From a virus, in UHGV virus genome UHGV-0275551: DNA of 64,000 nt. The stretch is one strand, 5' to 3'. This document shows, piece after piece, positions 18,995-27,037 of this stretch (positions are counted from its first letter, which is position 1; each line of letters starts with the position of its first letter). A model generated the notes under the pieces. It searched no databases, was not told the origin of the DNA, and was given only the letters and a program-made list of their open reading frames with translations. The translations under genes and the position numbers were made by a program.

Positions 18995-19055
18995 AAAAAA
19001 GCCCTGTCTAAAAATACTCTTCGGTAGCGAAAGGAAGAATACTTATAGCAGGGCA
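18995..19055 (-). terminator. rho-independent terminator after the tRNA array
   Basis: long imperfect hairpin closed by GCCCTG/CAGGGC, followed on the minus strand by TTTTTT. Confidence 0.45.
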
Positions 19056-19091
19056 TTATTATTATTTTAATTGAGAGAGAGTAAAATAACT

Positions 19092-19167
19092 TGGAGAATC
19101 CGAAGGGACTCGAACCCTTATAAACCTGTTTTGCAGACAGGCACATAGCCGTTTCTGTCACGGATTC
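19092..19167 (-). tRNA. tRNA-Cys (anticodon GCA)
   Basis: hand-folded cloverleaf; 7-bp acceptor gaatccg/cggattc, T-arm aaggg-actcgaa-ccctt on plus strand; sense anticodon loop CTGCAAA; CCA encoded. Confidence 0.6.
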
Positions 19168-19171
19168 AAAT

Positions 19172-19264
19172 TGGAGGAAGATACCAGACTTGAACTGGTA
19201 CACCGATTTCTCAGCTACTGGCAGTTTAGCAAACTGCTCCCTTACCTTTTAGGGTTAATCTTCC
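19172..19264 (-). tRNA. tRNA-Ser (anticodon GCT), class II
   Basis: 93 nt with long variable arm; acceptor ggaagat/atcttcc; sense anticodon arm GCAGT-TTGCTAA-ACTGC. Confidence 0.55.
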
Positions 19265-19266
19265 AT

Positions 19267-20001
19267 TTATTTCTGTAATGCGTTCTTCATTTCTGGTGTT
19301 GCAATAGTGTCAATTACACCAGTTTTACAAGCATCATCAAACCAGTCTGGTAAGATACCTGCTAAGAACCCATTGATATTCGTTTTAAGGTACTCTGCAA
19401 TAAGAGCAGCTTCTTCTTCAATCATCTGCACAACTTCATCTGCATAAGCTGTAATTTTTGAAATACCTTCATTAATCTTACTAACAGCTTGCTCAGCTAA
19501 ATCAGAAATAGTATCAAGACCTTTGTCAATAGCATCTTGTAAGTCACTTAACACACCATTAACACTATCTAGTGCACTGTTAATCGTATCAATAGCTTTT
19601 TGACCATACTCTGTAGCAACACCCATAATACCACTAAATGGTGTACAGCCAACTTGTTCACCTGCTGCACCCATAACATTAGAGTAACCTTTTGCTACCT
19701 GCATACGTGATGAAAACTCATCAATGGACTTTTGACCGTAATCTGTTAGTGTTTTGGTAGTTGATGTAGTGCTTGTCAGACTCGTGGTAAAGCTGTTAAG
19801 CAGAACTGTTGTAAGTCCAGCAGCAACAAGCTTATCCTTTACTGTAGGGTCTGATACAGAGCTAATAGAGCTTACAAGTGATGTAGAGGCAGCTACGGTT
19901 CCACCGAGAACTGCTGCACCAGTAATAAGGGGGTTAGAAAACCCTTTACCGGTTTTTAAGAGATTGAAAATCTCCTTACCTTGTTCTGTCATCTCTTTCA
20001 T
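19267..20001 (-). CDS. hypothetical Ser/Thr-rich protein embedded in tRNA array
   Basis: track ORF 19267..20064 shortened to the ATG at 20001 because the longer form overlaps tRNA-Phe; weak AAAGGTG RBS. Confidence 0.4.
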   Translation of the reverse strand: MKEMTEQGKEIFNLLKTGKGFSNPLITGAAVLGGTVAASTSLVSSISSVSDPTVKDKLVAAGLTTVLLNSFTTSLTSTTSTTKTLTDYGQKSIDEFSSRMQVAKGYSNVMGAAGEQVGCTPFSGIMGVATEYGQKAIDTINSALDSVNGVLSDLQDAIDKGLDTISDLAEQAVSKINEGISKITAYADEVVQMIEEEAALIAEYLKTNINGFLAGILPDWFDDACKTGVIDTIATPEMKNALQK

Positions 20002-20019
20002 TAAGCACCTTTGAAATTG

Positions 20020-20094
20020 GTAGTCCAGTGGGATTTGAACCCTCTTCTCATGTTTTTCAGACACGCGCTTTAACCATATAAGCTACTTGGACTA
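20020..20094 (-). tRNA. tRNA-Phe (anticodon GAA)
   Basis: acceptor tagtcca/tggacta perfect; sense anticodon arm CGTGT-CTGAAAA-ACATG; T-stem has one mismatch; CCA apparently incomplete. Confidence 0.5.
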
Positions 20095-20099
20095 TAAAT

Positions 20100-20175
20100 T
20101 GGGGTGACCTACGGGATTTGAACCCGTATAGACCATGTTCACAGCATGGGTCATTACCATTTATGATAAGGCCAC
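20100..20175 (-). tRNA. tRNA-His (anticodon GTG)
   Basis: sense anticodon arm CCATG-CTGTGAA-CATGG; discriminator C73; perfect T-arm. Confidence 0.6.
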
Positions 20176-20206
20176 ATTTAAGGACTCTCGTAAGAATCCT
20201 TAGAAG

Positions 20207-20282
20207 TGGCAGCGGCATAAGGATTTGAACCTTAATAGGACAGCTTCAGAGACTGCTGCATTGCCAGTTATGCTATACCGCT
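20207..20282 (-). tRNA. tRNA-Gln (anticodon CTG)
   Basis: sense anticodon loop CTCTGAA, stem with two G:U pairs; G73 discriminator; D-stem GCAT/ATGC. Confidence 0.5.
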
Positions 20283-20287
20283 AAATT

Positions 20288-20366
20288 TGGTACTCCATAT
20301 CGGATTCGAACCGATACATAACACAGATTTTAAGTCTGGCCTCTCTGCCAATTGGAGTAATGGAGC
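20288..20366 (-). tRNA. tRNA with Leu anticodon TAA, short variable loop
   Basis: 79 nt; sense anticodon arm CCAGA-CTTAAAA-TCTGT; Leu-type D-loop CAATTGGCAGAG; variable region about 7 nt; A73. Confidence 0.45.
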
Positions 20367-20368
20367 AT

Positions 20369-20444
20369 TGGCGGGGGATGTTGGAATTGAACCAACTTCT
20401 TCGATTTCAAAGACCGAGGTTTTAACCTTGTAAACTAATCCCCT
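20369..20444 (-). tRNA. tRNA-Gln (anticodon TTG)
   Basis: sense anticodon arm TCGGT-CTTTGAA-ATCGA; T-arm gttgg-aattgaa-ccaac; G73. Confidence 0.55.
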
Positions 20445-20452
20445 TTAAATCT

Positions 20453-21010
20453 TTACTTTCTTAGTGGATGAATAAAGAATGCCAACATAACTCTTTCCCT
20501 TGAAAATGCTCTTTCTTCTGGGACAACACTTTTAAGTTTCCACCCAACATAAATTCTCCAGTAAAATTGTTTACCAAAGATTTTGATTGACGGCACAAAA
20601 GCGAATAATCCCCAAGCATTACTGTTCCACATTAGGAGATAACCAGTCTGATTATCTTCAGGGTTAGAACTTACGTTGATATTACCTTTCCACTTAGTAA
20701 CATCTTTTACATCTCTTCCTAATACATGGTAAGAGAAGTTATAAGCTTTGTTTCTCCAGAGCCATCCAACTCTCTGCATGTAGACACCAAGCTTACCAAT
20801 CTTTCTAATCTTAGCCCATCGTTTGATATGACCTGCATCACCATCAATTGGGTTGTCATAAGTCTCCATCCATCTGAACCCGAAAGGTAAGTGTCCTTTC
20901 TTCTCACTGTAGAATGGAACTACAAAAGGTGCTAAGATAACTGCTAAGATTGCTGCAAATGGCTCTAACAAAGCTAAGAAAATCCATGAAGCATACTTTA
21001 AGTATCTCAT
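20453..21010 (-). CDS. hypothetical membrane protein embedded in tRNA array
   Basis: 185-aa track ORF; hydrophobic N terminus (IFLALLEPFAAILAVILAPFVVPF). Confidence 0.4.
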   Translation of the reverse strand: MRYLKYASWIFLALLEPFAAILAVILAPFVVPFYSEKKGHLPFGFRWMETYDNPIDGDAGHIKRWAKIRKIGKLGVYMQRVGWLWRNKAYNFSYHVLGRDVKDVTKWKGNINVSSNPEDNQTGYLLMWNSNAWGLFAFVPSIKIFGKQFYWRIYVGWKLKSVVPEERAFSRERVMLAFFIHPLRK

Positions 21011-21249
21011 TGTCTAATCCTCGTAAGGAGGTAAATGTTATTATTCGTTTCTAAACCTTCTGGTAAAACTGTCTCAAAAATAACACTCTTCAGATGTCTA
21101 CCACCAAAACAATCACGTATAAATCTTTCTACTCTAGCGGGGTCACATAAGTATCCCACTTTTAAGAAAATGTGGTGTTCAACACCAATGACCCTGACAA
21201 ACTCAATACTCTCACAGTTTTCATGTTCAACTACTGTTAATGTTTGCAT
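21007..21249 (-). CDS. hypothetical protein
   Basis: 80-aa track ORF, stop overlaps start of 20453..21010 ORF. Confidence 0.35.
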   Translation of the reverse strand: MQTLTVVEHENCESIEFVRVIGVEHHIFLKVGYLCDPARVERFIRDCFGGRHLKSVIFETVLPEGLETNNNIYLLTRIRQ

Positions 21250-21266
21250 AGTATCACCTTTTTATC

Positions 21267-21342
21267 TGGCGCAGGATAAGGGATTCGAACCCCTATTAAC
21301 AGCTTCGTAGACTGTTGCTCTTTCCATTTGAACTAATCCTGC
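21267..21342 (-). tRNA. tRNA-Arg (anticodon ACG)
   Basis: acceptor gcaggat/atcctgc perfect; sense anticodon arm ACAGT-CTACGAA-GCTGT. Confidence 0.55.
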
Positions 21343-21347
21343 AAAAT

Positions 21348-21425
21348 TGGTGTTCCAAGACGGATTCGAACCGTCACTAATACAAGGTTTGAGCTTGCAT
21401 CCTCTGCCAATTGGGATACTGGAAC
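21348..21425 (-). tRNA. tRNA with Leu anticodon CAA, short variable loop
   Basis: 78 nt; sense anticodon arm GCAAG-CTCAAAC-CTTGT; Leu-type D-loop CAATTGGCAGAG; perfect T-arm gacgg-attcgaa-ccgtc. Confidence 0.45.
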
Positions 21426-21426
21426 A

Positions 21427-21501
21427 TGGTACTCACTAAAGGACTTGAACCTTTTTCTTCATCTTGTAAGGGTGATGTTTTACCATATAAACTAAGCGAG
21501 T
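21427..21501 (-). tRNA. tRNA-Val (anticodon TAC)
   Basis: sense anticodon loop CTTACAA; T-arm aaagg-acttgaa-ccttt; D-stem gttt/aaac. Confidence 0.5.
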
Positions 21502-21502
21502 A

Positions 21503-21597
21503 TGGAAGAGGTCTGAAGTTGTGCCGCTAACTCAACTTCGTGGAATTTGTTACGGTCTTCAGTTGACTCAAAGCGGTCTTTCACTTGACCTCTGAAT
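21503..21597 (-). other. 95-nt structured spacer, possibly a degenerate tRNA or small RNA
   Basis: tgg + 7-bp terminal inverted repeat agaggtc/gacctct like an acceptor stem, internal 7-bp hairpin gaagttg/caacttc, but no canonical T-loop. Confidence 0.25.
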
Positions 21598-21673
21598 TGG
21601 TGCTCCCACAAGGACTCGAACCCTGATAAGTTGCTTACAAGGCAACCGTAATAACCAATTATACGATAGGAGC
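21598..21673 (-). tRNA. tRNA-Thr (anticodon TGT)
   Basis: sense anticodon arm GTTGC-CTTGTAA-GCAAC perfect; acceptor with one G:U. Confidence 0.6.
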
Positions 21674-21680
21674 ATTAATT

Positions 21681-21755
21681 TGGAGCATCCAGAGGGAATC
21701 GAACCCTCAACCTCAGTTTGGAAGACTGTAATTTTCCCGTTTAAACTATGGATGC
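21681..21755 (-). tRNA. tRNA-Gly (anticodon TCC)
   Basis: sense anticodon loop CTTCCAA; perfect T-arm gaggg-aatcgaa-ccctc; acceptor gcatcca/tggatgc. Confidence 0.5.
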
Positions 21756-21761
21756 ACTAAT

Positions 21762-21837
21762 TGGTGGAGTCACTGAGAATTGAACTCAGTTCCCAAGTTT
21801 GCAAAACTCGAATTTTAACCATATAAACTATGACCCC
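21762..21837 (-). tRNA. tRNA-Ala (anticodon TGC)
   Basis: sense anticodon arm CGAGT-TTTGCAA-ACTTG; G3:U70 pair and A73 as expected for Ala. Confidence 0.6.
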
Positions 21838-21843
21838 ATTGTT

Positions 21844-21919
21844 TGGTACAGGTGGAGGGAATTGAACCCATCGTCTTACTGATTAAGAGTCAGCCGCATA
21901 ACCATTTTGCTACACCTGC
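21844..21919 (-). tRNA. tRNA-Lys (anticodon CTT), weak T-stem
   Basis: best parse gives sense anticodon arm GCTGA-CTCTTAA-TCAGT; T-stem only 3 clean pairs; an alternative parse gave a poorer loop. Confidence 0.4.
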
Positions 21920-21926
21920 ATTAATT

Positions 21927-22003
21927 TGGTACACCTAGAGAGATTCGAACTCACACTGAGCAGATTCTAAGTCTGCTGCCTCTACCAGTTGGGCTATAGG
22001 TGC
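21927..22003 (-). tRNA. tRNA with Leu anticodon TAG, short variable loop
   Basis: 77 nt; sense anticodon arm GCAGA-CTTAGAA-TCTGC perfect; Leu-type D-arm GCC-CAACTGGTAGA-GGC; 5-nt variable loop. Confidence 0.5.
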
Positions 22004-22083
22004 ATTAAATCTTTTTAGAGAACTTCTAAGAACCTAAGCAACAAGGTTCCACAACAAGCTGTAATAACCTTAGAAGCCCTCTA

Positions 22084-22104
22084 AAAAGACCTAAATAGGT
22101 CTTT
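22084..22104 (-). terminator. hairpin terminator-like element downstream of the 22247..22588 ORF
   Basis: aaagacc-taaat-aggtcttt hairpin; short T-run on the minus strand. Confidence 0.35.
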
Positions 22105-22246
22105 GCATAGTCTTGTTTAATCCGGTGACTAGAACCTTTGGAGAGCTTGATATTATCTCTTCTCCGTGACACCTACTAGGTGCTTTGACAGTGTACGACA
22201 ATACACGAGGGATAAACCGACAATGCGAACAAGCATGGACGGAGTA

Positions 22247-22588
22247 TTAAATCTTTAAGCTAAGTTCAGTCTTAGACTTGATATCTTTAGCTTTGTAGAT
22301 GATGACTTTATCAAGTGGTTCAATGTAAACAGCTAAGTAATCAACTTGAGAGTTATCAAAATTCATTATTCTATTTTCATTCTTGTTAGAACGAACTCTT
22401 TTCAGTTGCACTCTCCAAAGTTCACCTCTTTTGACTGAGGTTGATTTTACCTCAACAGTCTCAATCAAACCATCTTTGTGAACTAGAAAGTCATACTTTG
22501 CATTATCTGTAGCTGGTGAATACACTTCATAACCTCTTTTGAGGAAAGCTAATTGTGTAGCAATTTCACCTACTGAACCTTTCTTCAT
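22247..22588 (-). CDS. PD-(D/E)XK-type nuclease-like protein, putative
   Basis: track ORF 22247..22768 shortened to ATG 22588 (strong AGGTGG RBS; longer form overlaps tRNA-Ser); motif YDFLVHKDG...IETVEVKS fits a D...E.K nuclease core. Confidence 0.4.
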   Translation of the reverse strand: MKKGSVGEIATQLAFLKRGYEVYSPATDNAKYDFLVHKDGLIETVEVKSTSVKRGELWRVQLKRVRSNKNENRIMNFDNSQVDYLAVYIEPLDKVIIYKAKDIKSKTELSLKI

Positions 22589-22611
22589 AATCACCACCTT
22601 AAAAATCATTT

Positions 22612-22698
22612 TGGCAGAGAGTGCAGGAGTCGAACCCGTACCGTTTCCAGCAGCACCAGTTTTCAAGGCTGGTTGGTCTCCGTTGACCGCCACTCTCT
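22612..22698 (-). tRNA. tRNA-Ser (anticodon TGA), class II
   Basis: 87 nt; acceptor agagagt/actctct perfect; sense anticodon loop CTTGAAA; long variable arm. Confidence 0.55.
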
Positions 22699-22711
22699 CC
22701 GAAACAATCTT

Positions 22712-22794
22712 TGGCATGGGACGGAGGAGTTGAACCCCTTTGAAACGGTTTTGGAGGCCGTTGCTCATGCCTTAGAGTCTTAACATCGTCCCAT
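22712..22794 (-). tRNA. tRNA with anticodon CCA (Trp?), atypical 83 nt
   Basis: perfect acceptor atgggac/gtcccat, G73, sense anticodon arm ACGGC-CTCCAAA-ACCGT, but the D-region is about 7 nt too long. Confidence 0.35.
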
Positions 22795-22936
22795 ATTATA
22801 ATTCGAAGCTTACCCTGTTATCTCAACACTGTCAAGCTTCTTCTCAGATTATTTACATGTTCTGGAAAACATGAGATACAGACCACCTCCCTACAGGAAG
22901 ACCCACTAAGGCCGTCTAAGTAATCTGCTAACTATT

Positions 22937-23013
22937 TGGTACACCCTACAGGATTCGAACCTGTAACTAACGATTTAGAAGACCGTTGCTCTATCCAATT
23001 GAACTAAGGGTGC
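22937..23013 (-). tRNA. tRNA-Arg (anticodon TCT)
   Basis: sense anticodon arm ACGGT-CTTCTAA-ATCGT; perfect T-arm acagg-attcgaa-cctgt. Confidence 0.6.
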
Positions 23014-23259
23014 ATTATCTTTAAAGACTCTCTTAGAAAGCCCTTAAAGATGCCCACCTTATTAATCATACCGTGGGCGAGTACGCCAAATTCTTTGATG
23101 AGGGATTGGAAGACCTCACTGGTGTTTAGCCTATCAAGCTACTGCCAGAAAAACATTGTCGTTTGCATTTATTTTAAATTTGCAAAATAGACGCTACGCA
23201 ACGAAAACTAAGGTTACTATAAAGTAGTCACATCTCAATGTCAACAACTTTATTGAAAT

Positions 23260-23335
23260 TGGTACTGGTAGGTGGAATCGAACCACCGATGTTCCCTTAT
23301 CAGGGGAGTGTTATAACCTTCTTAACTATACCAGC
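23260..23335 (-). tRNA. tRNA-Ile (anticodon GAT)
   Basis: sense anticodon loop CTGATAA; perfect T-arm ggtgg-aatcgaa-ccacc. Confidence 0.6.
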
Positions 23336-23336
23336 T

Positions 23337-23413
23337 TGGAGGTTCAGATGGGAATCGAACCCACATTCATAGGGCTTATGAGACCCTTGCATTACCTTAT
23401 CTGCGACTGAACC
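23337..23413 (-). tRNA. tRNA with anticodon CAT (Met or Ile2 type)
   Basis: sense anticodon arm AGGGT-CTCATAA-GCCCT; acceptor ggttcag/ctgaacc perfect. Confidence 0.55.
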
Positions 23414-23417
23414 ATAT

Positions 23418-23493
23418 TGGTAGAAGTGGAGGGATTCGAACCCATCGCCTGTCAGATTAAAAGTCTGCCGCATCACCATTCTGCTACACTTCC
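23418..23493 (-). tRNA. tRNA-Lys (anticodon TTT)
   Basis: sense anticodon loop CTTTTAA; T-arm gaggg-attcgaa-cccat. Confidence 0.55.
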
Positions 23494-23496
23494 ATT

Positions 23497-23640
23497 AAAT
23501 TATCTTTGTAGATAAGCTACCCAGACTTGCTTAAGGTCTGTAGCGATGTGCCTTTTTGGGTTTAAATCTAGAATTTACCCTTTCACCCTTTGTGGTCGCA
23601 TACTCACAGGTAAGCTTAATAACTTATCTACAAAGATAAT
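23497..23640. repeat. 19-bp inverted repeat bracketing about 105 bp inside a tRNA spacer
   Basis: aattatctttgtagataag (left arm) and its exact reverse complement cttatctacaaagataatt (right arm). Confidence 0.55.
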
Positions 23641-23785
23641 TACCAGACCGTTGTTTATCATCTTAAGTGCTACCATTACACCAACTCGACATCTGCCGAG
23701 TGAAGGAATCGAACCTTCGCCTTTTCTTTACCGAGAAATAGATTGTTTAAGTTTTGCTGTAAACGGTCTTCTGTAAATTTGTTGA
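23641..23785 (-). repeat. spacer unit (family shared with 24180-24262 and 24340-24430) containing a tRNA-like T-arm fragment
   Basis: begins taccagaccg, ends ttgctgtaaacggtcttctgtaaatttg; internal gaagg-aatcgaa-ccttc hairpin followed by ttttcttt. Confidence 0.4.
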
Positions 23786-23922
23786 GCCAGACCAAGTTTT
23801 AAATTTTTCAAAATTAAATTGGCTTGAAATTTCATACATTCTTGCTGTATTTGGTCTTCTGCTCCTTTAAAGAATACTCGTAAGAACTCTTTAAGGGAGG
23901 GGCTAAATAGCCCTCTCAAAAT

Positions 23923-24000
23923 TGGCGGTTATGAAGGGATTTGAACCCTCATCATCTCCCGTGACAGGGGAGTATTTTAACCAGATTAAACTACATAACC
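23923..24000 (-). tRNA. tRNA-Asp (anticodon GTC)
   Basis: sense anticodon arm CTCCC-CTGTCAC-GGGAG perfect; acceptor ggttatg/cataacc perfect. Confidence 0.6.
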
Positions 24001-24006
24001 TTTATT

Positions 24007-24094
24007 TGGTGTGCCGTGTAGGAGTCGAACCTACCGAGTCTCAATGACAAGGGATTTACAGTCCCCACCGCTACCATCTACGGGATAACGACAC
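24007..24094 (-). tRNA. tRNA-Tyr (anticodon GTA), class II
   Basis: 88 nt; sense anticodon loop CTGTAAA; perfect T-arm gtagg-agtcgaa-cctac; long variable arm. Confidence 0.55.
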
Positions 24095-24102
24095 ATTTAA
24101 TT

Positions 24103-24179
24103 TGGCGGTTAGTCAGGGATTCGAACCCTGTGCCATTCGCTTAACAGGCGACCGCACATACCTTATGTGCTTCCTAACC
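24103..24179 (-). tRNA. tRNA-Asn (anticodon GTT)
   Basis: sense anticodon loop CTGTTAA; D-stem GCAC/GTGC; perfect T-arm caggg-attcgaa-ccctg. Confidence 0.55.
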
Positions 24180-24262
24180 ATGTTTAGTATTACCAGACCG
24201 TATCTTTCAATTTTTCCGCTAAAAATTTAATAAATATTGCTGTAAACGGTCTTCTGTAAATT
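24180..24262 (-). repeat. spacer unit between tRNA-Asn and the second CAT tRNA
   Basis: shares taccagaccg start and ttgctgtaaacggtcttctgtaaatttgg end with the 23641-23785 unit. Confidence 0.45.
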
Positions 24263-24339
24263 TGGAGGCGGGTGCAGGAGTCGAACCTGCCGATACCATG
24301 CTAATGAGACATGTGAGACGCCCTTTCTCTATACCCGCA
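24263..24339 (-). tRNA. tRNA with anticodon CAT, pair 1:72 mismatched (initiator-like?)
   Basis: perfect T-arm gcagg-agtcgaa-cctgc; sense anticodon loop CTCATTA (position 37 is T); acceptor pair 1:72 is T:C. Confidence 0.45.
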
Positions 24340-24430
24340 ATTCTTAATGACCAGACCAAATCTCTTCTTTGTCCGATTTACCTTCAGATGAATAAGATTA
24401 AGTTTGCTGTAATTGGTCTTCTGTCAAAAC
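24340..24430 (-). repeat. spacer unit between the CAT tRNA and tRNA-Glu
   Basis: accagaccaaa start and tttgctgtaattggtcttctgtcaaaactgg end, degenerate copy of the spacer family. Confidence 0.4.
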
Positions 24431-24508
24431 TGGCGTTCCAGAAGGGATTTGAACCCTCAGATATCCACTTTGAAAGAGTGGTGACTTTACCGTTTTGTCT
24501 ACTGGAAC
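24431..24508 (-). tRNA. tRNA-Glu (anticodon TTC)
   Basis: sense anticodon arm CCACT-CTTTCAA-AGTGG perfect; acceptor gttccag/ctggaac perfect. Confidence 0.6.
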
Positions 24509-24515
24509 ATTAATT

Positions 24516-24592
24516 TGGTCTCTGTTGGAGGACTTGAACCTCCGGCCTTACCGCCCCAAACGGAACGCTCTACCAAGCTGAGCTAAACAGAG
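24516..24592 (-). tRNA. tRNA-Pro (anticodon TGG)
   Basis: sense anticodon loop TTTGGGG; perfect T-arm ggagg-acttgaa-cctcc; D-arm GCTC-AGCTTGGTA-GAGC. Confidence 0.55.
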
Positions 24593-24716
24593 ATAAACTT
24601 TTCAAACTCTATGTAACCACTTTAACATTATTTTTTAGTGGTTGTCAAGAACTTTTTTAAAATATTTTTCAGTATCTTAGAAAAGCTCTCATTTCGTTTC
24701 TATGTAGAACATATTA

Positions 24717-24756
24717 AAGGGTATTAAACACATTGTCAATACCCTTTTTAAAACTT
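24717..24756. terminator. 9-bp-stem hairpin with T-runs on both sides (bidirectional terminator candidate)
   Basis: aagggtatt / aataccctt stem, 12-nt loop, followed on plus strand by ttttaaaactttttacc; lies between the vWA gene and the tRNA array. Confidence 0.4.
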
Positions 24757-24757
24757 T

Positions 24758-26173
24758 TTACCAGATATAACGGTCAATCATTACTGCTTTGAGCATTACA
24801 CTGATTGGGTCAAACTTCTCACCACCAAGCAGAGCTTTTAAAGTGGCTGGAGAGAACCCTGATACCATTGCTACACCGTTATCCTTAACAGATACTTCGC
24901 AAGTACCATTACGGTTTGCTAAGTACCAGAATACCAGTTGTGGCATCTCATATCCAGCTTTTTTGTACTTACTCTGAATTGCTTCAAAGTTTGTACGACC
25001 GTTAGCCCCATCAACCTGATTAAACTCCATATCGGAGAAGATGATAAGCTTACTTGGCATATCTTTCTGAGTCAAGTTGTTTCTTTTGCCTGTCTCAAGA
25101 ATACGGTCAAAAGCTGCTTGTAAGTTAGTTGAGCCATATTCAACGTGTCGCATCACCTGACGATGACGGTTTCGTAAATCACCACTCAGTTCGATGAAGT
25201 GAGGGTTTGTTGAATAAACCATCAACTCATTCTTAAAGCAACCTGTATTGCGTTCTGCTACATACAAGGCAAGTGATACACCAATATCCAGAGCAGTAAT
25301 GGAGCCAAAATTCACCCAAGACATTGAACTTGATACATCAGACATACACAAGATGTTTTCACCTTCTGCCATCCAGTTTGGTAGTGCTTTCCACTGCTCA
25401 TTAGCAACATCTGCATTACCATGCTTGACAGATTTAATCACATCGTATGGGTAAACAGCACCAGCATTAATCTTAGCCTCACCTTTTGATAAGGACTCAA
25501 TGTAAGCTTTGTAACGTTCTCCATCCTTACGGTTAAACAGTTTTTGGTAACGTGCAGCAGCAAGTGAGGGAACCTTACTGTAGTCAATCTTGCCAAACTC
25601 ATTAGCAGAGATTTTTTGCTCAACTGTATCAGATAGTGCAGATAACAGTGTGCGGTACTCTTTCTCGCTCAAGTTGGCAAACTTGCAGAAACGTTTTACA
25701 AACTGCTTATGACGTGGTTTGACTCGTGGTAACCACTTAGCCGCCAAACCTGCTGTTGCAGGGTCTAGTAATGCTGCTTCTAAATGTTTGAAGGCATCTG
25801 TCTCGAAACAAGTACCCACGAAGATTTTGAAGTCATCAAAACGACCAAGTTCTGCAATCTTATCCATAATGCGAAGAACCTGTGTAGGCTCTAAAACTTT
25901 ATCTTCAATTGCTTGAAGCAAAACAGTTCTGAAGGCTTTACGCTCACCCATACCTTCTCGTACATCTCGCATATGAAGCAAAATACGAACTGCAACATCA
26001 ACATCCTCACGCAAAGCTTTGTAGAACAAGTCTGGTAAGATTTCTACATTGCTACGGCTTGAACCAGCAGCTTTGTAAAAGTCTACAAGAGCAGACATTG
26101 ATGAAGTATGGTTTACAGCACCATTTTCAGTTCGACCTGCATGAAGGTGCGCATGTTTAAATAATTCGCTCAT
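24758..26173 (-). CDS. vWA-domain protein with about 280-aa helical N-terminal domain
   Basis: 471 aa; MIDAS-like DxSxS (ILCMSDVSSSMSW) and KLIIFSDMEF strand typical of von Willebrand A domains. Confidence 0.55.
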   Translation of the reverse strand: MSELFKHAHLHAGRTENGAVNHTSSMSALVDFYKAAGSSRSNVEILPDLFYKALREDVDVAVRILLHMRDVREGMGERKAFRTVLLQAIEDKVLEPTQVLRIMDKIAELGRFDDFKIFVGTCFETDAFKHLEAALLDPATAGLAAKWLPRVKPRHKQFVKRFCKFANLSEKEYRTLLSALSDTVEQKISANEFGKIDYSKVPSLAAARYQKLFNRKDGERYKAYIESLSKGEAKINAGAVYPYDVIKSVKHGNADVANEQWKALPNWMAEGENILCMSDVSSSMSWVNFGSITALDIGVSLALYVAERNTGCFKNELMVYSTNPHFIELSGDLRNRHRQVMRHVEYGSTNLQAAFDRILETGKRNNLTQKDMPSKLIIFSDMEFNQVDGANGRTNFEAIQSKYKKAGYEMPQLVFWYLANRNGTCEVSVKDNGVAMVSGFSPATLKALLGGEKFDPISVMLKAVMIDRYIW

Positions 26174-26254
26174 ATTTTACTCTCTTCTCTCATTTGTTGT
26201 TTGATGTGACAGACTTTAGAGCAACTTTATAGAGTCTGTCAACACCTTTTAAAA

Positions 26255-26626
26255 TTATTTTTTAAGAGTCGCTACAGCAGAGAACGTTGGTTTGTTATCT
26301 GTCTGTTGTTGACCACCATTATCAGGAGTCTTCTTAGTGTCTGCTGCAAGTGCTTTCATCTCACCTGCTGAGTGAGTAAAGATAGTTTTACCTACCTCAA
26401 TCATGCTCTTGATGGTTACGTCGTCTGTGTTTAACCCGAACTCTGCAAGCTTAGCAGCATCCCTTGTAACAATCGCTTCAAATAACTTTGCAGCAAACTC
26501 AGCAGAGTTGTCAATGGTCAGTTGAGCTTTTACAAGTGAGCTTTTGTTGCGAGAGCCTTTTGGTCTTCCAGATGGGTTTCCAGATTGGCCTTTTTTAAAC
26601 TGGCCTTTGTTTGTTCTGTTTTTCAT
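26255..26626 (-). CDS. hypothetical basic protein
   Basis: 123-aa track ORF; N-terminal KGQSGNPSGRPKGSRNK motif; divergent from the plus-strand cluster. Confidence 0.4.
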   Translation of the reverse strand: MKNRTNKGQFKKGQSGNPSGRPKGSRNKSSLVKAQLTIDNSAEFAAKLFEAIVTRDAAKLAEFGLNTDDVTIKSMIEVGKTIFTHSAGEMKALAADTKKTPDNGGQQQTDNKPTFSAVATLKK

Positions 26627-26801
26627 TGGTATGCCTCTTATAAGACCTCTTAAAAGGCTTTTAAGATAAAAGATAGATATCCAGAAAGATATCTGTTTAA
26701 ATAGCCTTTTTAGAGGAACCTTTTAAGTTATCTTCTAAGTATTTATAAGCCTACACCTTGTCAAGTACTTTGTCAACAACTTTTTTAACTTGCAATAGTT
26801 C

Positions 26802-26830
26802 TTGACTTGTTGTATGGATTACTGTACCAT
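26802..26830 (+). promoter_or_regulatory. sigma70-like promoter candidate for the plus-strand cluster
   Basis: TTGACT - 17 bp - TACCAT, about 45 nt upstream of the ATG at 26876. Confidence 0.3.
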
Positions 26831-26875
26831 CTTACTTAAAGCTGTAGGTCTGCCTTGTTCTACAAAGGAGACTTA

Positions 26876-27037
26876 ATGAGAAAATCAAATAAACCGAAGA
26901 AAGGTAAGAATACCAATCACTGTAAGGAATCAAAAAGGGTAGAGTCAATCTACTATTCATCCTCTGAAATTGGTCTGTACCTGTTCTTTCAAAATTACAG
27001 AAGACAAGAGGATTATCTATGTGTAGTTCCCAATTAG
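26876..27037 (+). CDS. hypothetical small basic protein
   Basis: track ORF 26855..27037 re-started at ATG 26876, which has an AAAGGAGA RBS; the track start is a TTG. Confidence 0.3.
   Translation: MRKSNKPKKGKNTNHCKESKRVESIYYSSSEIGLYLFFQNYRRQEDYLCVVPN

What the first reader, a model, noticed from the sequence alone, without database searches (positions are those of the whole stretch)
23641..24430. Family of repeated spacer units between tRNA genes
Three inter-tRNA spacers (23641-23785, 24180-24262, 24340-24430) share a start motif taccagacc(g) and an end motif ttgctgtaaacggtcttctgtaaatttgg, with a 5-7-bp inverted repeat between ends (cagaccg / cggtct). The first copy also contains a tRNA-like T-arm hairpin followed by a T-run. 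These could be processing signals, small RNAs or MITE-like insertions that multiplied within the array.
Basis: seen in the sequence. Interest (0 to 1): 0.5.

Follow-up and report, generated by a model that had tools for sequence, protein, structure and literature searches.

The report
Phage Y-RNA-like genes between tRNAs
The repeated "spacers" in this phage's tRNA gene cluster are most likely four small non-coding RNAs, one of them a tRNA mimic, that partner with a Ro60-like RNA-binding protein encoded just upstream, and the same RNA–protein pairing recurs in many unrelated phages.

Summary
There are four units, not three, all on the minus strand, which also carries the 26 tRNA genes. Each has a short lower stem, an AGA/G internal loop and a 7-8 bp helix (AGACCNN/NNGGUCU) whose changes between copies are compensatory. 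An invariant UACAGCAA lies exactly 10 nt from the helix base.

The window is a Felixounavirus. Directly upstream, on the same strand, is a 471-aa DUF2828/vWA protein. It is 97% identical to Bas63 gp130, and its predicted fold matches only Ro60/TROVE proteins over its full length.

A covariance model built only from distant phages that carry this gene (39-48% protein identity) ranks the four window units as its top four hits. In those phages all 83 hits lie on the gene's strand, mostly beside the gene, with or without tRNAs nearby. Bacterial genome contigs gave 46 of 47.

The longest unit (U4) has the V, T-arm, closed-acceptor and D-arm order of bacterial YrlA Y RNAs.

Best reading: these are Y-RNA-like partners of a divergent Ro60-like protein, matured from the tRNA precursor. 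Expression and binding are inferred, not shown. They fail Rfam's YrlA threshold and lack the canonical Ro60-binding motif, so I class them as a new variant of a known kind.

The parts
24348..24426 (-). Unit U1 (short Y-like RNA) between tRNA-Glu and tRNA-Met. Lower stem UGAC (24426-24423) / GUCA (24351-24348); AGA bulge 24422-24420; helix AGACCAA (24419-24413) / UUGGUCU (24359-24353); unpaired G 24352; CAGCAA 24409-24404.
   Evidence: Model R2, built from distant phages only, scores 33.0 bits: E 3.4e-5 over 77 kb and 3.5e-6 over 8 kb.
24190..24259 (-). Unit U2 (short Y-like RNA) between tRNA-Met and tRNA-Asn. Lower stem UUAC (24259-24256) / GUAA (24193-24190); AGA 24255-24253; helix AGACCGU (24252-24246) / ACGGUCU (24201-24195); unpaired G 24194; CAGCAA 24242-24237.
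   Evidence: R1 scores 32.6 bits, E 4.8e-5 over the whole window. R2 scores 38.2 bits, E 2e-6 to 2e-7. Fold z-score -2.1. In L004 and L006 the lower stem is UUGC/GCAA, a compensatory change.
23784..23864 (-). Lower stem GAGC (23864-23861) / GCUC (23787-23784); AGA 23860-23858; helix AGACCAA (23857-23851) / UUGGUCU (23795-23789); unpaired G 23788; CAGCAA 23847-23842.
   Evidence: (D10). This is the weakest R2 hit: 16.0 bits, E 0.033 over 8 kb with filters off. Orthologues score 23.6-24 bits in Bas63 and Moogle.
23640..23776 (-). Unit U4 (long, YrlA-like). Lower stem UUAC (23776-23773) / GUAA (23643-23640); helix AGACCGUU (23769-23762) / AACGGUCU (23652-23645); unpaired G 23644; CAGCAA 23759-23754; inner 5-bp stem CUUAA (23751-23747) / UUAAG (23666-23662); V hairpin 23738-23723; T arm 23718-23702; closed acceptor-like stem ACUCGGC (23701-23695), loop AGAU, GUCGAGU (23690-23684); D arm 23681-23667.
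   Evidence: Fold. R2 scores 27.2 bits, E 8e-5. The Rfam tRNA model matches only the T arm. ARAGORN calls no tRNA here.
24758..26173 (-). Gene for the proposed protein partner: 471 aa, DUF2828 + DUF7788 (vWA with MIDAS motif D279-x-S281-x-S283), a Ro60-like fold, orthologue of Bas63 gp130.
   Evidence: Pfam. PHROG 850 'RNA-binding protein'. AF2 model pLDDT 87.8, pTM 0.88. Foldseek top 9 hits are all Ro60/TROVE, E 3e-8 to 6e-7, TM 0.5-0.6. 97% identical to bas63_0130.
24711..24739 (-). Sigma-70-like promoter candidate (TTGACA-17-TAATAT) between the Ro60-like gene and tRNA-Pro.
   Evidence: 10 of 12 consensus positions. The number of promoter-like sites in the region is not above shuffles, so this is weak evidence.
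24619..24648 (-). Second sigma-70-like promoter candidate (TTGACA-18-TAAAGT, with TG) upstream of tRNA-Pro.
   Evidence: 10 of 12, with the same caveat.

Best explanation
The four units are genes for small non-coding RNAs of the Y-RNA type. They are the likely RNA partners of the Ro60-like (DUF2828 + vWA) protein encoded immediately upstream.

Proposed mechanism, with the basis of each step:
1. They are transcribed with the tRNAs from promoters just downstream of the protein gene (inferred).
2. They are released when RNase P cuts the 5' end of the next tRNA and the preceding tRNA's CCA end is matured. Exonucleases then trim back to the terminal stem (inferred from the 3-4 nt and 9-10 nt gaps to the flanking tRNAs).
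3. Each folds so that its two ends pair: a lower stem, an AGA/G internal loop, then a 7-8 bp helix starting A-G-R and closed by Y-C-U plus an unpaired G. A single-stranded UACAGCAA follows, 10 nt from the helix base (shown by covariation).
4. This module is the protein's binding site (inferred from strict co-location and co-orientation with the gene in many unrelated phages and bacterial contigs).
5. U1-U3 carry only an unstructured, A-rich loop, like YrlB. U4 carries a permuted tRNA-like domain (V hairpin, T arm, closed 7-bp acceptor-like stem, D arm), like YrlA. That domain could tether the protein to a tRNA-recognising enzyme or nuclease, or act as a tRNA decoy (speculative).
For: Motif and copy number in the window.

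Compensatory differences between paralogues and orthologues: CCG/CGG versus CCAA/UUGG in the helix; UGAC/GUCA, UUAC/GUAA, UUGC/GCAA and GAGC/GCUC in the lower stem.

Protein: full-length structural matches only to Ro60/TROVE. It has a MIDAS motif. It is 97% identical to Bas63 gp130, which a preprint calls structurally Ro60-like.

Family: in 75 loci around distant homologues, model R1 gave 63 of 64 hits on the gene strand and R2 gave 83 of 83. 53 of 75 loci have a hit with E<0.01, mostly within 1 kb of the gene. These include loci with no tRNA.

Helix covariation on 44 distinct sequences: 98.7% of cells paired; 6 of 7 pairs show double changes; 104 double-change cells against 29.9 +/- 4.2 in shuffles; slid controls 29-46% paired.

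The same model, trained without any Felix-like sequence, ranks U2, U1, U4 and U3 as the top four hits in 8 kb of the window.

Independent replicate in bacterial genome contigs: 46 of 47 hits on the gene strand, beside the gene.

Reverse test: of at least 120 viral stretches with a specific version of the motif, 35 hold the gene in the retrieved slice. All 35 are on the same strand, at a median distance of 253 nt. Of the 18 well-flanked stretches with no gene in the slice, 12 lie between tRNA genes.

A tRNA-like T arm, closed stem and D arm inside the conserved helix recur with different sequences in at least 8 loci. One family member gets a sub-threshold Rfam YrlA hit: 39.1 bits, E 4.7e-5.

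The V-T-AS-D order matches Chen et al. 2014 (PMC4201824).
Against: There are no expression, end-mapping or binding data, so the RNP is inferred from genomic association only.

The canonical bacterial Ro60-binding motif GNCGAAN0-1G is absent. Window U4 gets no Rfam YrlA or Y_RNA hit even at E<=10.

The protein has no Pfam TROVE hit and no sequence-level PDB hit.

gp130 expressed alone from a plasmid, or from T7, counters the Ppl defence. The RNAs are therefore not needed for that activity.

About half of the well-flanked motif hits have no gene within the retrieved slice. 22 of 75 gene loci have no hit at E<0.01.

U3 is a weak model hit (E 0.033). Single-sequence fold z-scores of U1, U3 and U4 are unremarkable (-0.5 to -1.6). 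The covariation alignments were selected or fitted for pairing.
Confidence: 0.68

Rival explanations
1. The units are structured spacers that only guide processing or stability of the polycistronic tRNA precursor (for example entry or stop sites for RNase E, RNase III or exonucleases). They have no life of their own and no link to the Ro60-like protein.
For: They sit 3-4 nt after a CCA end and 9-10 nt before the next tRNA. Many family members in other phages also lie exactly between tRNA genes.
Against: The same motif lies next to the DUF2828 gene in loci with no tRNA within 6 kb: L011, L015-17, L022, L024, L026, L028, L031, L033, L080. Most other inter-tRNA spacers in this array are 1-8 nt, so tRNA maturation does not need such units. 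An invariant single-stranded octamer plus a tRNA-mimic domain is more than a processing hairpin needs.
Confidence: 0.1
2. The RNAs are real and stable, but they act independently of gp130. They could be decoys or inhibitors for a host tRNA-targeting defence nuclease, or ligands of another phage or host protein. The linkage to the DUF2828 gene would then reflect a shared counter-defence island.
For: gp130 works without them against Ppl. About half of the well-flanked motif hits have no gene in the slice. The tRNA-like domain is suited to decoy roles.
Against: Hits share the gene's strand in 83 of 83 and 46 of 47 cases and sit tightly beside it, at a median of about 250 nt, across very diverse phages and bacterial contigs. 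Very short copies lie on the gene's own 5' UTR in several lineages. Both point to recognition by this protein.
Confidence: 0.12
3. The motif is a cis-regulatory operator or stabiliser of the DUF2828 gene's mRNA, not a separate RNA. The window copies would be non-functional duplicates.
For: The motif lies immediately 5' (overlapping the RBS region) or 3' of the gene in many loci.
Against: In the window, two promoter-like sites and two tRNAs separate the gene from the nearest unit. Four copies are conserved at fixed positions in 240+ phages. Long copies carry a conserved tRNA-like domain. Autoregulation through the same motif is compatible with the main explanation rather than a true rival.
Confidence: 0.05
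4. The units are MITE-like or other mobile DNA that multiplied in the array, or decayed tRNA pseudogenes left by tandem duplication.
For: Inverted-repeat ends, variable interiors and multiple copies. U4 contains tRNA halves in permuted order, and some GenBank records annotate it as tRNA-Thr.
Against: The arms covary instead of being conserved, so the constraint is on an RNA helix. There are no copies elsewhere in the window and none in 5,426 E. coli genomes. Positions are orthologous in all relatives. The permuted T / closed-stem / D order recurs with unrelated sequences in distant phages, which decay would not produce.
Confidence: 0.03

Closest known systems
YrlA (Rfam RF02553), the tRNA-like bacterial Y RNA bound by Rsr/Ro60 (Chen et al. 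2014, PMC4201824)
   Same: It is encoded next to a Ro60-type gene. The 5' and 3' ends pair, with a conserved motif on the 5' strand. The interior runs V hairpin, T arm, closed acceptor-like stem, D arm (U4). A family member in another phage scores 39 bits against RF02553.
   Different: The recognition motif is an A-G-R helix plus UACAGCAA, not GNCGAAN0-1G. The partner protein is DUF2828, not Pfam TROVE. Window U4 gets no RF02553 hit. The genes are embedded in a tRNA array.
YrlB and other short bacterial or phage Y RNAs, for example Yrl1/Yrl2 of Thermus phage phiLo (PMC12135203)
   Same: Several short stem-loop RNAs with paired ends and a large loop are encoded beside a phage Ro60 homologue, alongside a longer tRNA-like one. 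U1-U3 fit this pattern.
   Different: The phiLo RNAs were picked by the CGAA motif and bind a canonical TROVE Ro60. Here the motif and the protein family both differ, and binding is untested.
Metazoan Y RNAs (Rfam RF00019) with Ro60
   Same: A terminal bulged helix formed by the RNA ends, a conserved protein-binding element on the 5' strand, and a variable loop. The protein's predicted fold is a HEAT ring plus vWA/MIDAS.
   Different: There is no sequence similarity, no Rfam hit and no Pol III context. The helix motif differs.
Stable non-tRNA RNAs inside phage tRNA clusters (T4 species 1 and 2 RNAs; from my own knowledge)
   Same: Small RNAs co-transcribed with phage tRNAs and released by tRNA-processing enzymes.
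   Different: As far as I know, the T4 RNAs have no known protein partner and no Ro60-like neighbour. No comparison was run here.

Membership tests
YrlA / bacterial Y RNA (RF02553) | Reaches the Rfam gathering score of the YrlA covariance model | tested here: not met
   Window U4 gets no YrlA hit at E<=10, even when scanned alone. Family members in L012 score 39.1 and 29.6 bits against a gathering score of 69.
YrlA / bacterial Y RNA (RF02553) | Conserved Rsr-binding motif GNCGAAN0-1G near the 5' end (PMC4201824) | tested here: not met
   The units carry UACAGCAA (CCGCAA in some distant members) in the equivalent place. No GNCGAA is present.
YrlA / bacterial Y RNA (RF02553) | tRNA-like domain in the order V, T arm, closed acceptor-like stem, D arm, enclosed by a stem made of the RNA's ends | tested here: met
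   U4 has V 23738-23723, T 23718-23702 (UUCGAUU loop), a 7-bp closed stem 23701-23684, and a D arm 23681-23667 with GG. The order matches. U1-U3 lack this domain, like YrlB.
YrlA / bacterial Y RNA (RF02553) | Encoded adjacent to a Ro60 orthologue | tested here: met
   The units begin 330 nt downstream of a gene with a Ro60-like fold, on the same strand. The association is replicated in 53 of 75 distant viral loci and in bacterial contigs.
YrlA / bacterial Y RNA (RF02553) | Physically bound by the Ro60 protein; carries tRNA modifications; substrate of tRNA enzymes | not testable with these tools
   Needs co-immunoprecipitation, EMSA and modification mapping.
Ro60 / TROVE proteins (for the partner gene) | Pfam TROVE domain (PF05731) by sequence | tested here: not met
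   Only DUF2828 and DUF7788 are hit. Sequence and profile searches of the PDB find no Ro60.
Ro60 / TROVE proteins (for the partner gene) | Helical-repeat ring followed by a vWA domain with a MIDAS motif | tested here: met
   The AF2 model (pLDDT 87.8) matches Xenopus, human and phage Ro60 over 515-568 aligned columns, TM 0.5-0.6, E about 1e-7. D279, S281 and S283 are invariant in 31 homologues. This is a predicted, not a solved, structure.
New RNA family defined here (model R2) | A-G-R helix of at least 7 bp closed by Y-C-Y-G, with [U/A][U/A]CAGCAA starting 10 nt from the helix base | tested here: met
   All four window units meet it. With filters off, R2 gives E 2e-7, 3.5e-6, 8e-5 and 0.033.
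MITE / transposable element | Conserved terminal inverted repeats, target-site duplications, dispersed copies | tested here: not met
   The arms covary. There are no dispersed copies in the window or in E. coli genomes. Target-site duplications were not examined in detail.
Canonical tRNA gene | Cloverleaf in normal order, detected by ARAGORN or the Rfam tRNA model | tested here: not met
   No tRNA is called in any unit. Only the T arm of U4 matches RF00005, at 14.9 bits.

The most novel reading that the evidence does not exclude
A widespread and so far undescribed class of Y-like RNAs, recognised by an A-G-R helix plus UACAGCAA, is the cognate ligand of the DUF2828 branch of Ro60-like proteins in phages (Felix O1-like, KVP40-like and many uncultured) and in bacterial contigs. 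In tRNA-rich phages these RNAs have moved into the tRNA arrays. There they use the tRNA-processing machinery for biogenesis and include tRNA mimics. The resulting RNP is part of the counter-defence function already shown genetically for Bas63 gp130.
Probability: 0.5. Interest if true: 0.75.

Novelty: new variant of a known kind. Interest (0 to 1): 0.66.

Why it matters
Ro60-Y RNA particles are conserved from bacteria to humans, and their function is still debated. Phage versions are only beginning to be studied.

The protein here is 97% identical to Bas63 gp130, a demonstrated counter of the Ppl defence. The authors of that work guessed that some annotated tRNAs might be its Y RNAs.

This analysis points instead to four unannotated spacers. 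In GenBank records these are sometimes overlaid by spurious ORFs or labelled tRNA-Thr. The analysis also gives a sequence and structure signature that finds partners for the whole DUF2828 clade.

That makes several questions directly testable:
- Does gp130 work as an RNP?
- What does the tRNA mimic recruit?
- Why are these RNAs linked to phage tRNA arrays?

It also corrects the annotation of hundreds of phage genomes.

Tried and rejected
(1) Promoter reading of the 5' motif (TTTACA...TATTTA). The -10 element is not conserved between copies, and the one scanned site scores 9 of 12. Rejected.

(2) ARAGORN on a circularly re-permuted U4. Nothing was found at the default threshold. At a lowered threshold both the construct and the shuffled-D-arm controls were called, so the test does not discriminate.

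(3) MAFFT alignment of full-length units misaligned the 3' arms. I replaced it with fixed-length trimmed constructs and then with model-made alignments.

(4) The first reverse-association pattern, AAAGGNNNNNTTACAGCAAN{25,55}CCTG, was too loose. It was uninformative.

(5) Sequence and profile searches of the protein against the PDB found nothing. Only the fold comparison showed the Ro60 relation.

(6) Weak Rfam hits of U1 and U2 to Dictyostelium Class I RNA (E about 0.7-0.9) were treated as chance.

(7) The supplements of Chen et al. 2014 are not held, and the Sim et al. 2020 review is not held. I therefore could not check whether any Felix-like or DUF2828 phage was in their lists.

(8) The PhageMaP text does not mention genes 137 or 138, which overlie U3 and U4.

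Full report
**Setting.** The window is a Felix O1-like phage. The region 23400-24620 is 95-99% identical to many Felixounavirus genomes. ARAGORN finds 26 tRNA genes, all on the minus strand, between 19092 and 24592.

**Checking the observation.** Read on the minus strand, the units begin 3-4 nt after the CCA of the preceding tRNA and end 9-10 nt before the next one.
- The 20-mer CAGAAGACCNNNTACAGCAA occurs exactly four times, at 23754, 23842, 24237 and 24404. Shuffles give 0.13.
- Three of these are followed within 20-50 nt by YGGTCTGG, against 0.00 expected. In the fourth the partner lies 100 nt away.

Each unit has a 4-bp lower stem, an AGA/G internal loop, a 7-8 bp helix and then UACAGCAA.
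- Differences between copies are compensatory. The helix is AGACCGU/ACGGUCU or AGACCAA/UUGGUCU. The lower stem is UGAC/GUCA, UUAC/GUAA or GAGC/GCUC.
- In relatives L004 and L006 the U2 lower stem is UUGC/GCAA.
- The 'T-run' after the T-arm hairpin is on the antisense strand and is incidental.

**The neighbouring gene.** Directly upstream on the same strand is a 471-aa ORF (24758-26173).
- Pfam gives DUF2828 + DUF7788 and no TROVE hit. PHROGs calls the family 'RNA-binding protein'.
- Sequence and profile searches of the PDB find nothing.
- An AlphaFold2 model built from 31 homologues is confident: pLDDT 87.8, pTM 0.88.
- Its nine best PDB matches are all Ro60/TROVE proteins aligned over the full length (Xenopus, human, Thermus phage phiLo), with E 3e-8 to 6e-7 and TM 0.5-0.6. 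The next matches cover only the vWA domain.
- The MIDAS residues D279, S281 and S283 are invariant.
- The protein is 97% identical to Bas63 gp130.

A preprint (10.1101/2024.10.10.617714) says the following about gp130:
- It is structurally Ro60-like and counters the Ppl defence system.
- It does so even when expressed alone from a plasmid or from T7.
- Some annotated tRNA genes downstream 'are possibly Y RNAs'.

In Bas63 the four units occupy the same unannotated spacers. Two are overlaid by hypothetical ORFs on the opposite strand. None is an annotated tRNA.

**Relatives.** I fetched 80 viral loci encoding DUF2828 homologues: five Felix-like, one at 48% identity and the rest at 39-45%.
- In many of them a tRNA array follows the gene on the same strand.
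- Regular-expression scans showed a generalised motif on the gene's strand, usually within 1 kb of the gene and often in 2-4 tandem copies. It is a helix starting A-G-R (U-G-G in one clade) and closed by Y-C-Y plus G, with [U/A][U/A]CAGCAA at a constant 10 nt from the helix base.
- A strict version gave 17 hits on the gene strand and 3 on the other strand. Dinucleotide shuffles gave about 1 on both strands together, over 884 kb.
- The helix sequence differs from locus to locus: AGACCGU, AGAGCAC, AGAUUAGG, AGGAUCG, UGGUUCC, AGAAUGU and others.

**Covariance models.**
- R1 was built from 23 fixed-length, loop-trimmed units from distant loci only. Its best hit in the whole 64-kb window is U2 (32.6 bits, E 4.8e-5).
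- On the 75 non-Felix-like loci, R1 gave 64 hits with E<=1, of which 63 were on the gene strand. All 48 hits with E<=0.05 were on that strand.
- On the resulting 44 distinct sequences the 7-bp helix is 98.7% paired. Six of seven pairs show double-sided changes. There are 104 double-change cells against 29.9 +/- 4.2 in shuffles, and 29-46% pairing when the partner is slid. This alignment was fitted to the structure, so the numbers lean towards it. The slid controls and the strand bias do not share that bias.
- R2 was built from that alignment and is still free of Felix-like sequences. With default filters it finds U2 and U1 in the window.
- With filters off over 19000-27000, its four best hits are U2 (E 2e-7), U1 (3.5e-6), U4 (8e-5) and U3 (0.033), each with the expected pairing.
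- On the 75 loci, R2 gives 83 hits with E<=0.1, all on the gene strand. 53 loci have a hit with E<0.01. These include loci where ARAGORN finds no tRNA at all.

**Independent replicate.** Eighty bacterial genome or MAG contigs encode homologues at 33-42% identity. R2 gave 47 hits there, 46 on the gene strand, clustered just upstream or downstream of the gene.

**Reverse association.**
- A first, loose pattern was uninformative.
- A specific pattern, AAGGATNNNTWCAGCAAN{20,50}ATCCTG, has a chance expectation of about one by my own estimate. It gave at least 120 viral stretches.
- Of these, 35 contain the gene in the retrieved slice. All 35 are on the same strand, at a median distance of 253 nt.
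- Of the 34 stretches with at least 2.5 kb on both sides, 16 have the gene.
- Of the 18 without it, 12 are units wedged between tRNA genes in long arrays, 3 are intergenic and 4 are chance matches in coding sequence.
- The RNA is therefore linked both to the gene and to tRNA arrays. Whether gene-less slices come from genomes that encode the protein elsewhere could not be tested. One such case is visible: L273 and L023 are slices of the same contig.

**The tRNA-like domain.** U4 folds into a closing helix around a V-like hairpin, a T arm (GAAGG-UUCGAUU-CCUUC), a 7-bp stem closed by a tetraloop (ACUCGGC-AGAU-GUCGAGU), and then UG and a D arm (GUGU-AAUGGUA-GCAC).
- The same T arm, 7-8 bp closed stem, UA and D arm order, with unrelated stem sequences, occurs inside the conserved helix in Moogle, L012 (twice), L013, L035, L036, L056 and L062.
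- This is the V-T-AS-D layout described for YrlA (PMC4201824).
- Rfam holds YrlA (RF02553). Two L012 units score 39.1 and 29.6 bits against a gathering score of 69 (E 4.7e-5 in 67 kb).
- Window U4 gets no hit even when scanned alone.
- No other Rfam family matches any unit.

**Rivals.**
- Mobile DNA is unlikely. The arms covary, there are no copies elsewhere in the window or in 5,426 E. coli genomes, and positions are fixed in 240+ phage records.
- A pure processing signal is unlikely because the motif also occurs away from tRNAs.
- A cis-regulatory role is possible for the very short copies that sit on the gene's 5' UTR in several lineages. That fits recognition by the protein rather than contradicting it.
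- The most serious reservation is that nothing here shows expression or binding, and that gp130 can act against Ppl without these RNAs.

**Comparison and novelty.**
- Phage Y RNAs are known for canonical TROVE Ro60 proteins. Examples are mycobacteriophages, CcrColossus, Bacillus phage G and phiLo, and they were identified through the CGAA motif.
- For the DUF2828 branch I found only remarks that the protein looks like Ro60. I found no description of an RNA partner.
- The library searched is incomplete, and two key sources were not held.
- I therefore class the finding as a new variant of a known kind. It works like a Y RNA / Ro60 system, but it fails two defining tests for YrlA membership (motif and Rfam score) and one for TROVE (Pfam).

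**Verdict.**
- The 'small RNA' reading is supported.
- The best explanation is Y-like partner RNAs of a Ro60-like protein, matured from the tRNA precursor (confidence about 0.68).
- Interest is 0.66.

Noticed in passing
window 23494-23645 (-): This is a fifth non-tRNA element, 152 nt long, between U4 and tRNA-Lys. It has a 24-bp closing stem (arms 23498-23519 / 23620-23641), MFE -48.3 and z -5.3. The stem is kept by compensatory changes in Citrobacter phage Moogle. An inner hairpin has a UUAAGCAA loop. There is no Rfam match. It may be an RNase III substrate or another ligand RNA.
   Followed up: partly
L009 5949-5991; L020 2854-2895; L013 1759-1800; L036 5950-5986; L040 5903-5938; L063 5901-5950; L072 5902-5948: Very short copies of the motif (32-50 nt hairpins with CAGCAA in the loop) sit on the 5' UTR and RBS region of the DUF2828 gene in KVP40-like and other phages. 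This suggests autoregulation by the protein.
   Followed up: partly
L009, L010, L013, L020, L036, L040 (long units, e.g. L009 5271-5375): A third unit subtype in KVP40-like phages shares an inner motif, CCUUUCUGGAGGGGAAAGCAAAAACUCGCC, in place of a tRNA-like domain.
   Followed up: no
distant short units, e.g. L018 2079-2146, L024 7793-7859, L033 7393-7460, L080 5831-5897: The loops of many short units are A-rich and unstructured, with two or three further AGCAA repeats. The window's U1-U3 loops lack these.
   Followed up: no
window 22247-22768 (-) and 22704-22792 (-): A PD-(D/E)XK endonuclease ORF (Pfam PF11645) lies inside the tRNA array. Its 5' part overlaps a tRNA-like remnant that appears in repeat families D4 and D8 and gets a weak tRNA-Sec-like Rfam hit of 23 bits. 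ARAGORN does not call it.
   Followed up: no
window 23014-23318 (-): There are weak sub-threshold Rfam hits to tmRNA (15.7 bits) and permuted tmRNA (29.2 bits against a gathering score of 47). They lie in the 245-nt gap between tRNA-Ile and tRNA-Arg and partly overlap tRNA-Ile. Hairpins lie at 23017-23051 and 22005-22094.
   Followed up: no
L323 42749-43023 (Bas63 bas63_0137/0138); L001 3147-3377 (pinkbiff_41); REP5 and ASO1B records: Public annotations place hypothetical ORFs on the opposite strand over U3, U4 and the 152-nt element, or label U4 as tRNA-Thr. These are probably mis-annotations.
   Followed up: partly
L045, L053, L055, L066, L082, L292: Several phages with the DUF2828 gene or the RNA motif also carry a phage-encoded tmRNA within about 2-6 kb.
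   Followed up: no
L324-L403: DUF2828 genes with adjacent R2 hits occur on contigs assigned to very diverse bacteria, including Chloroflexota, Lachnospiraceae, Rickettsiales, Endomicrobium and Novimethylophilus. Whether these are prophages, binned phage contigs or cellular genes was not examined.
   Followed up: no
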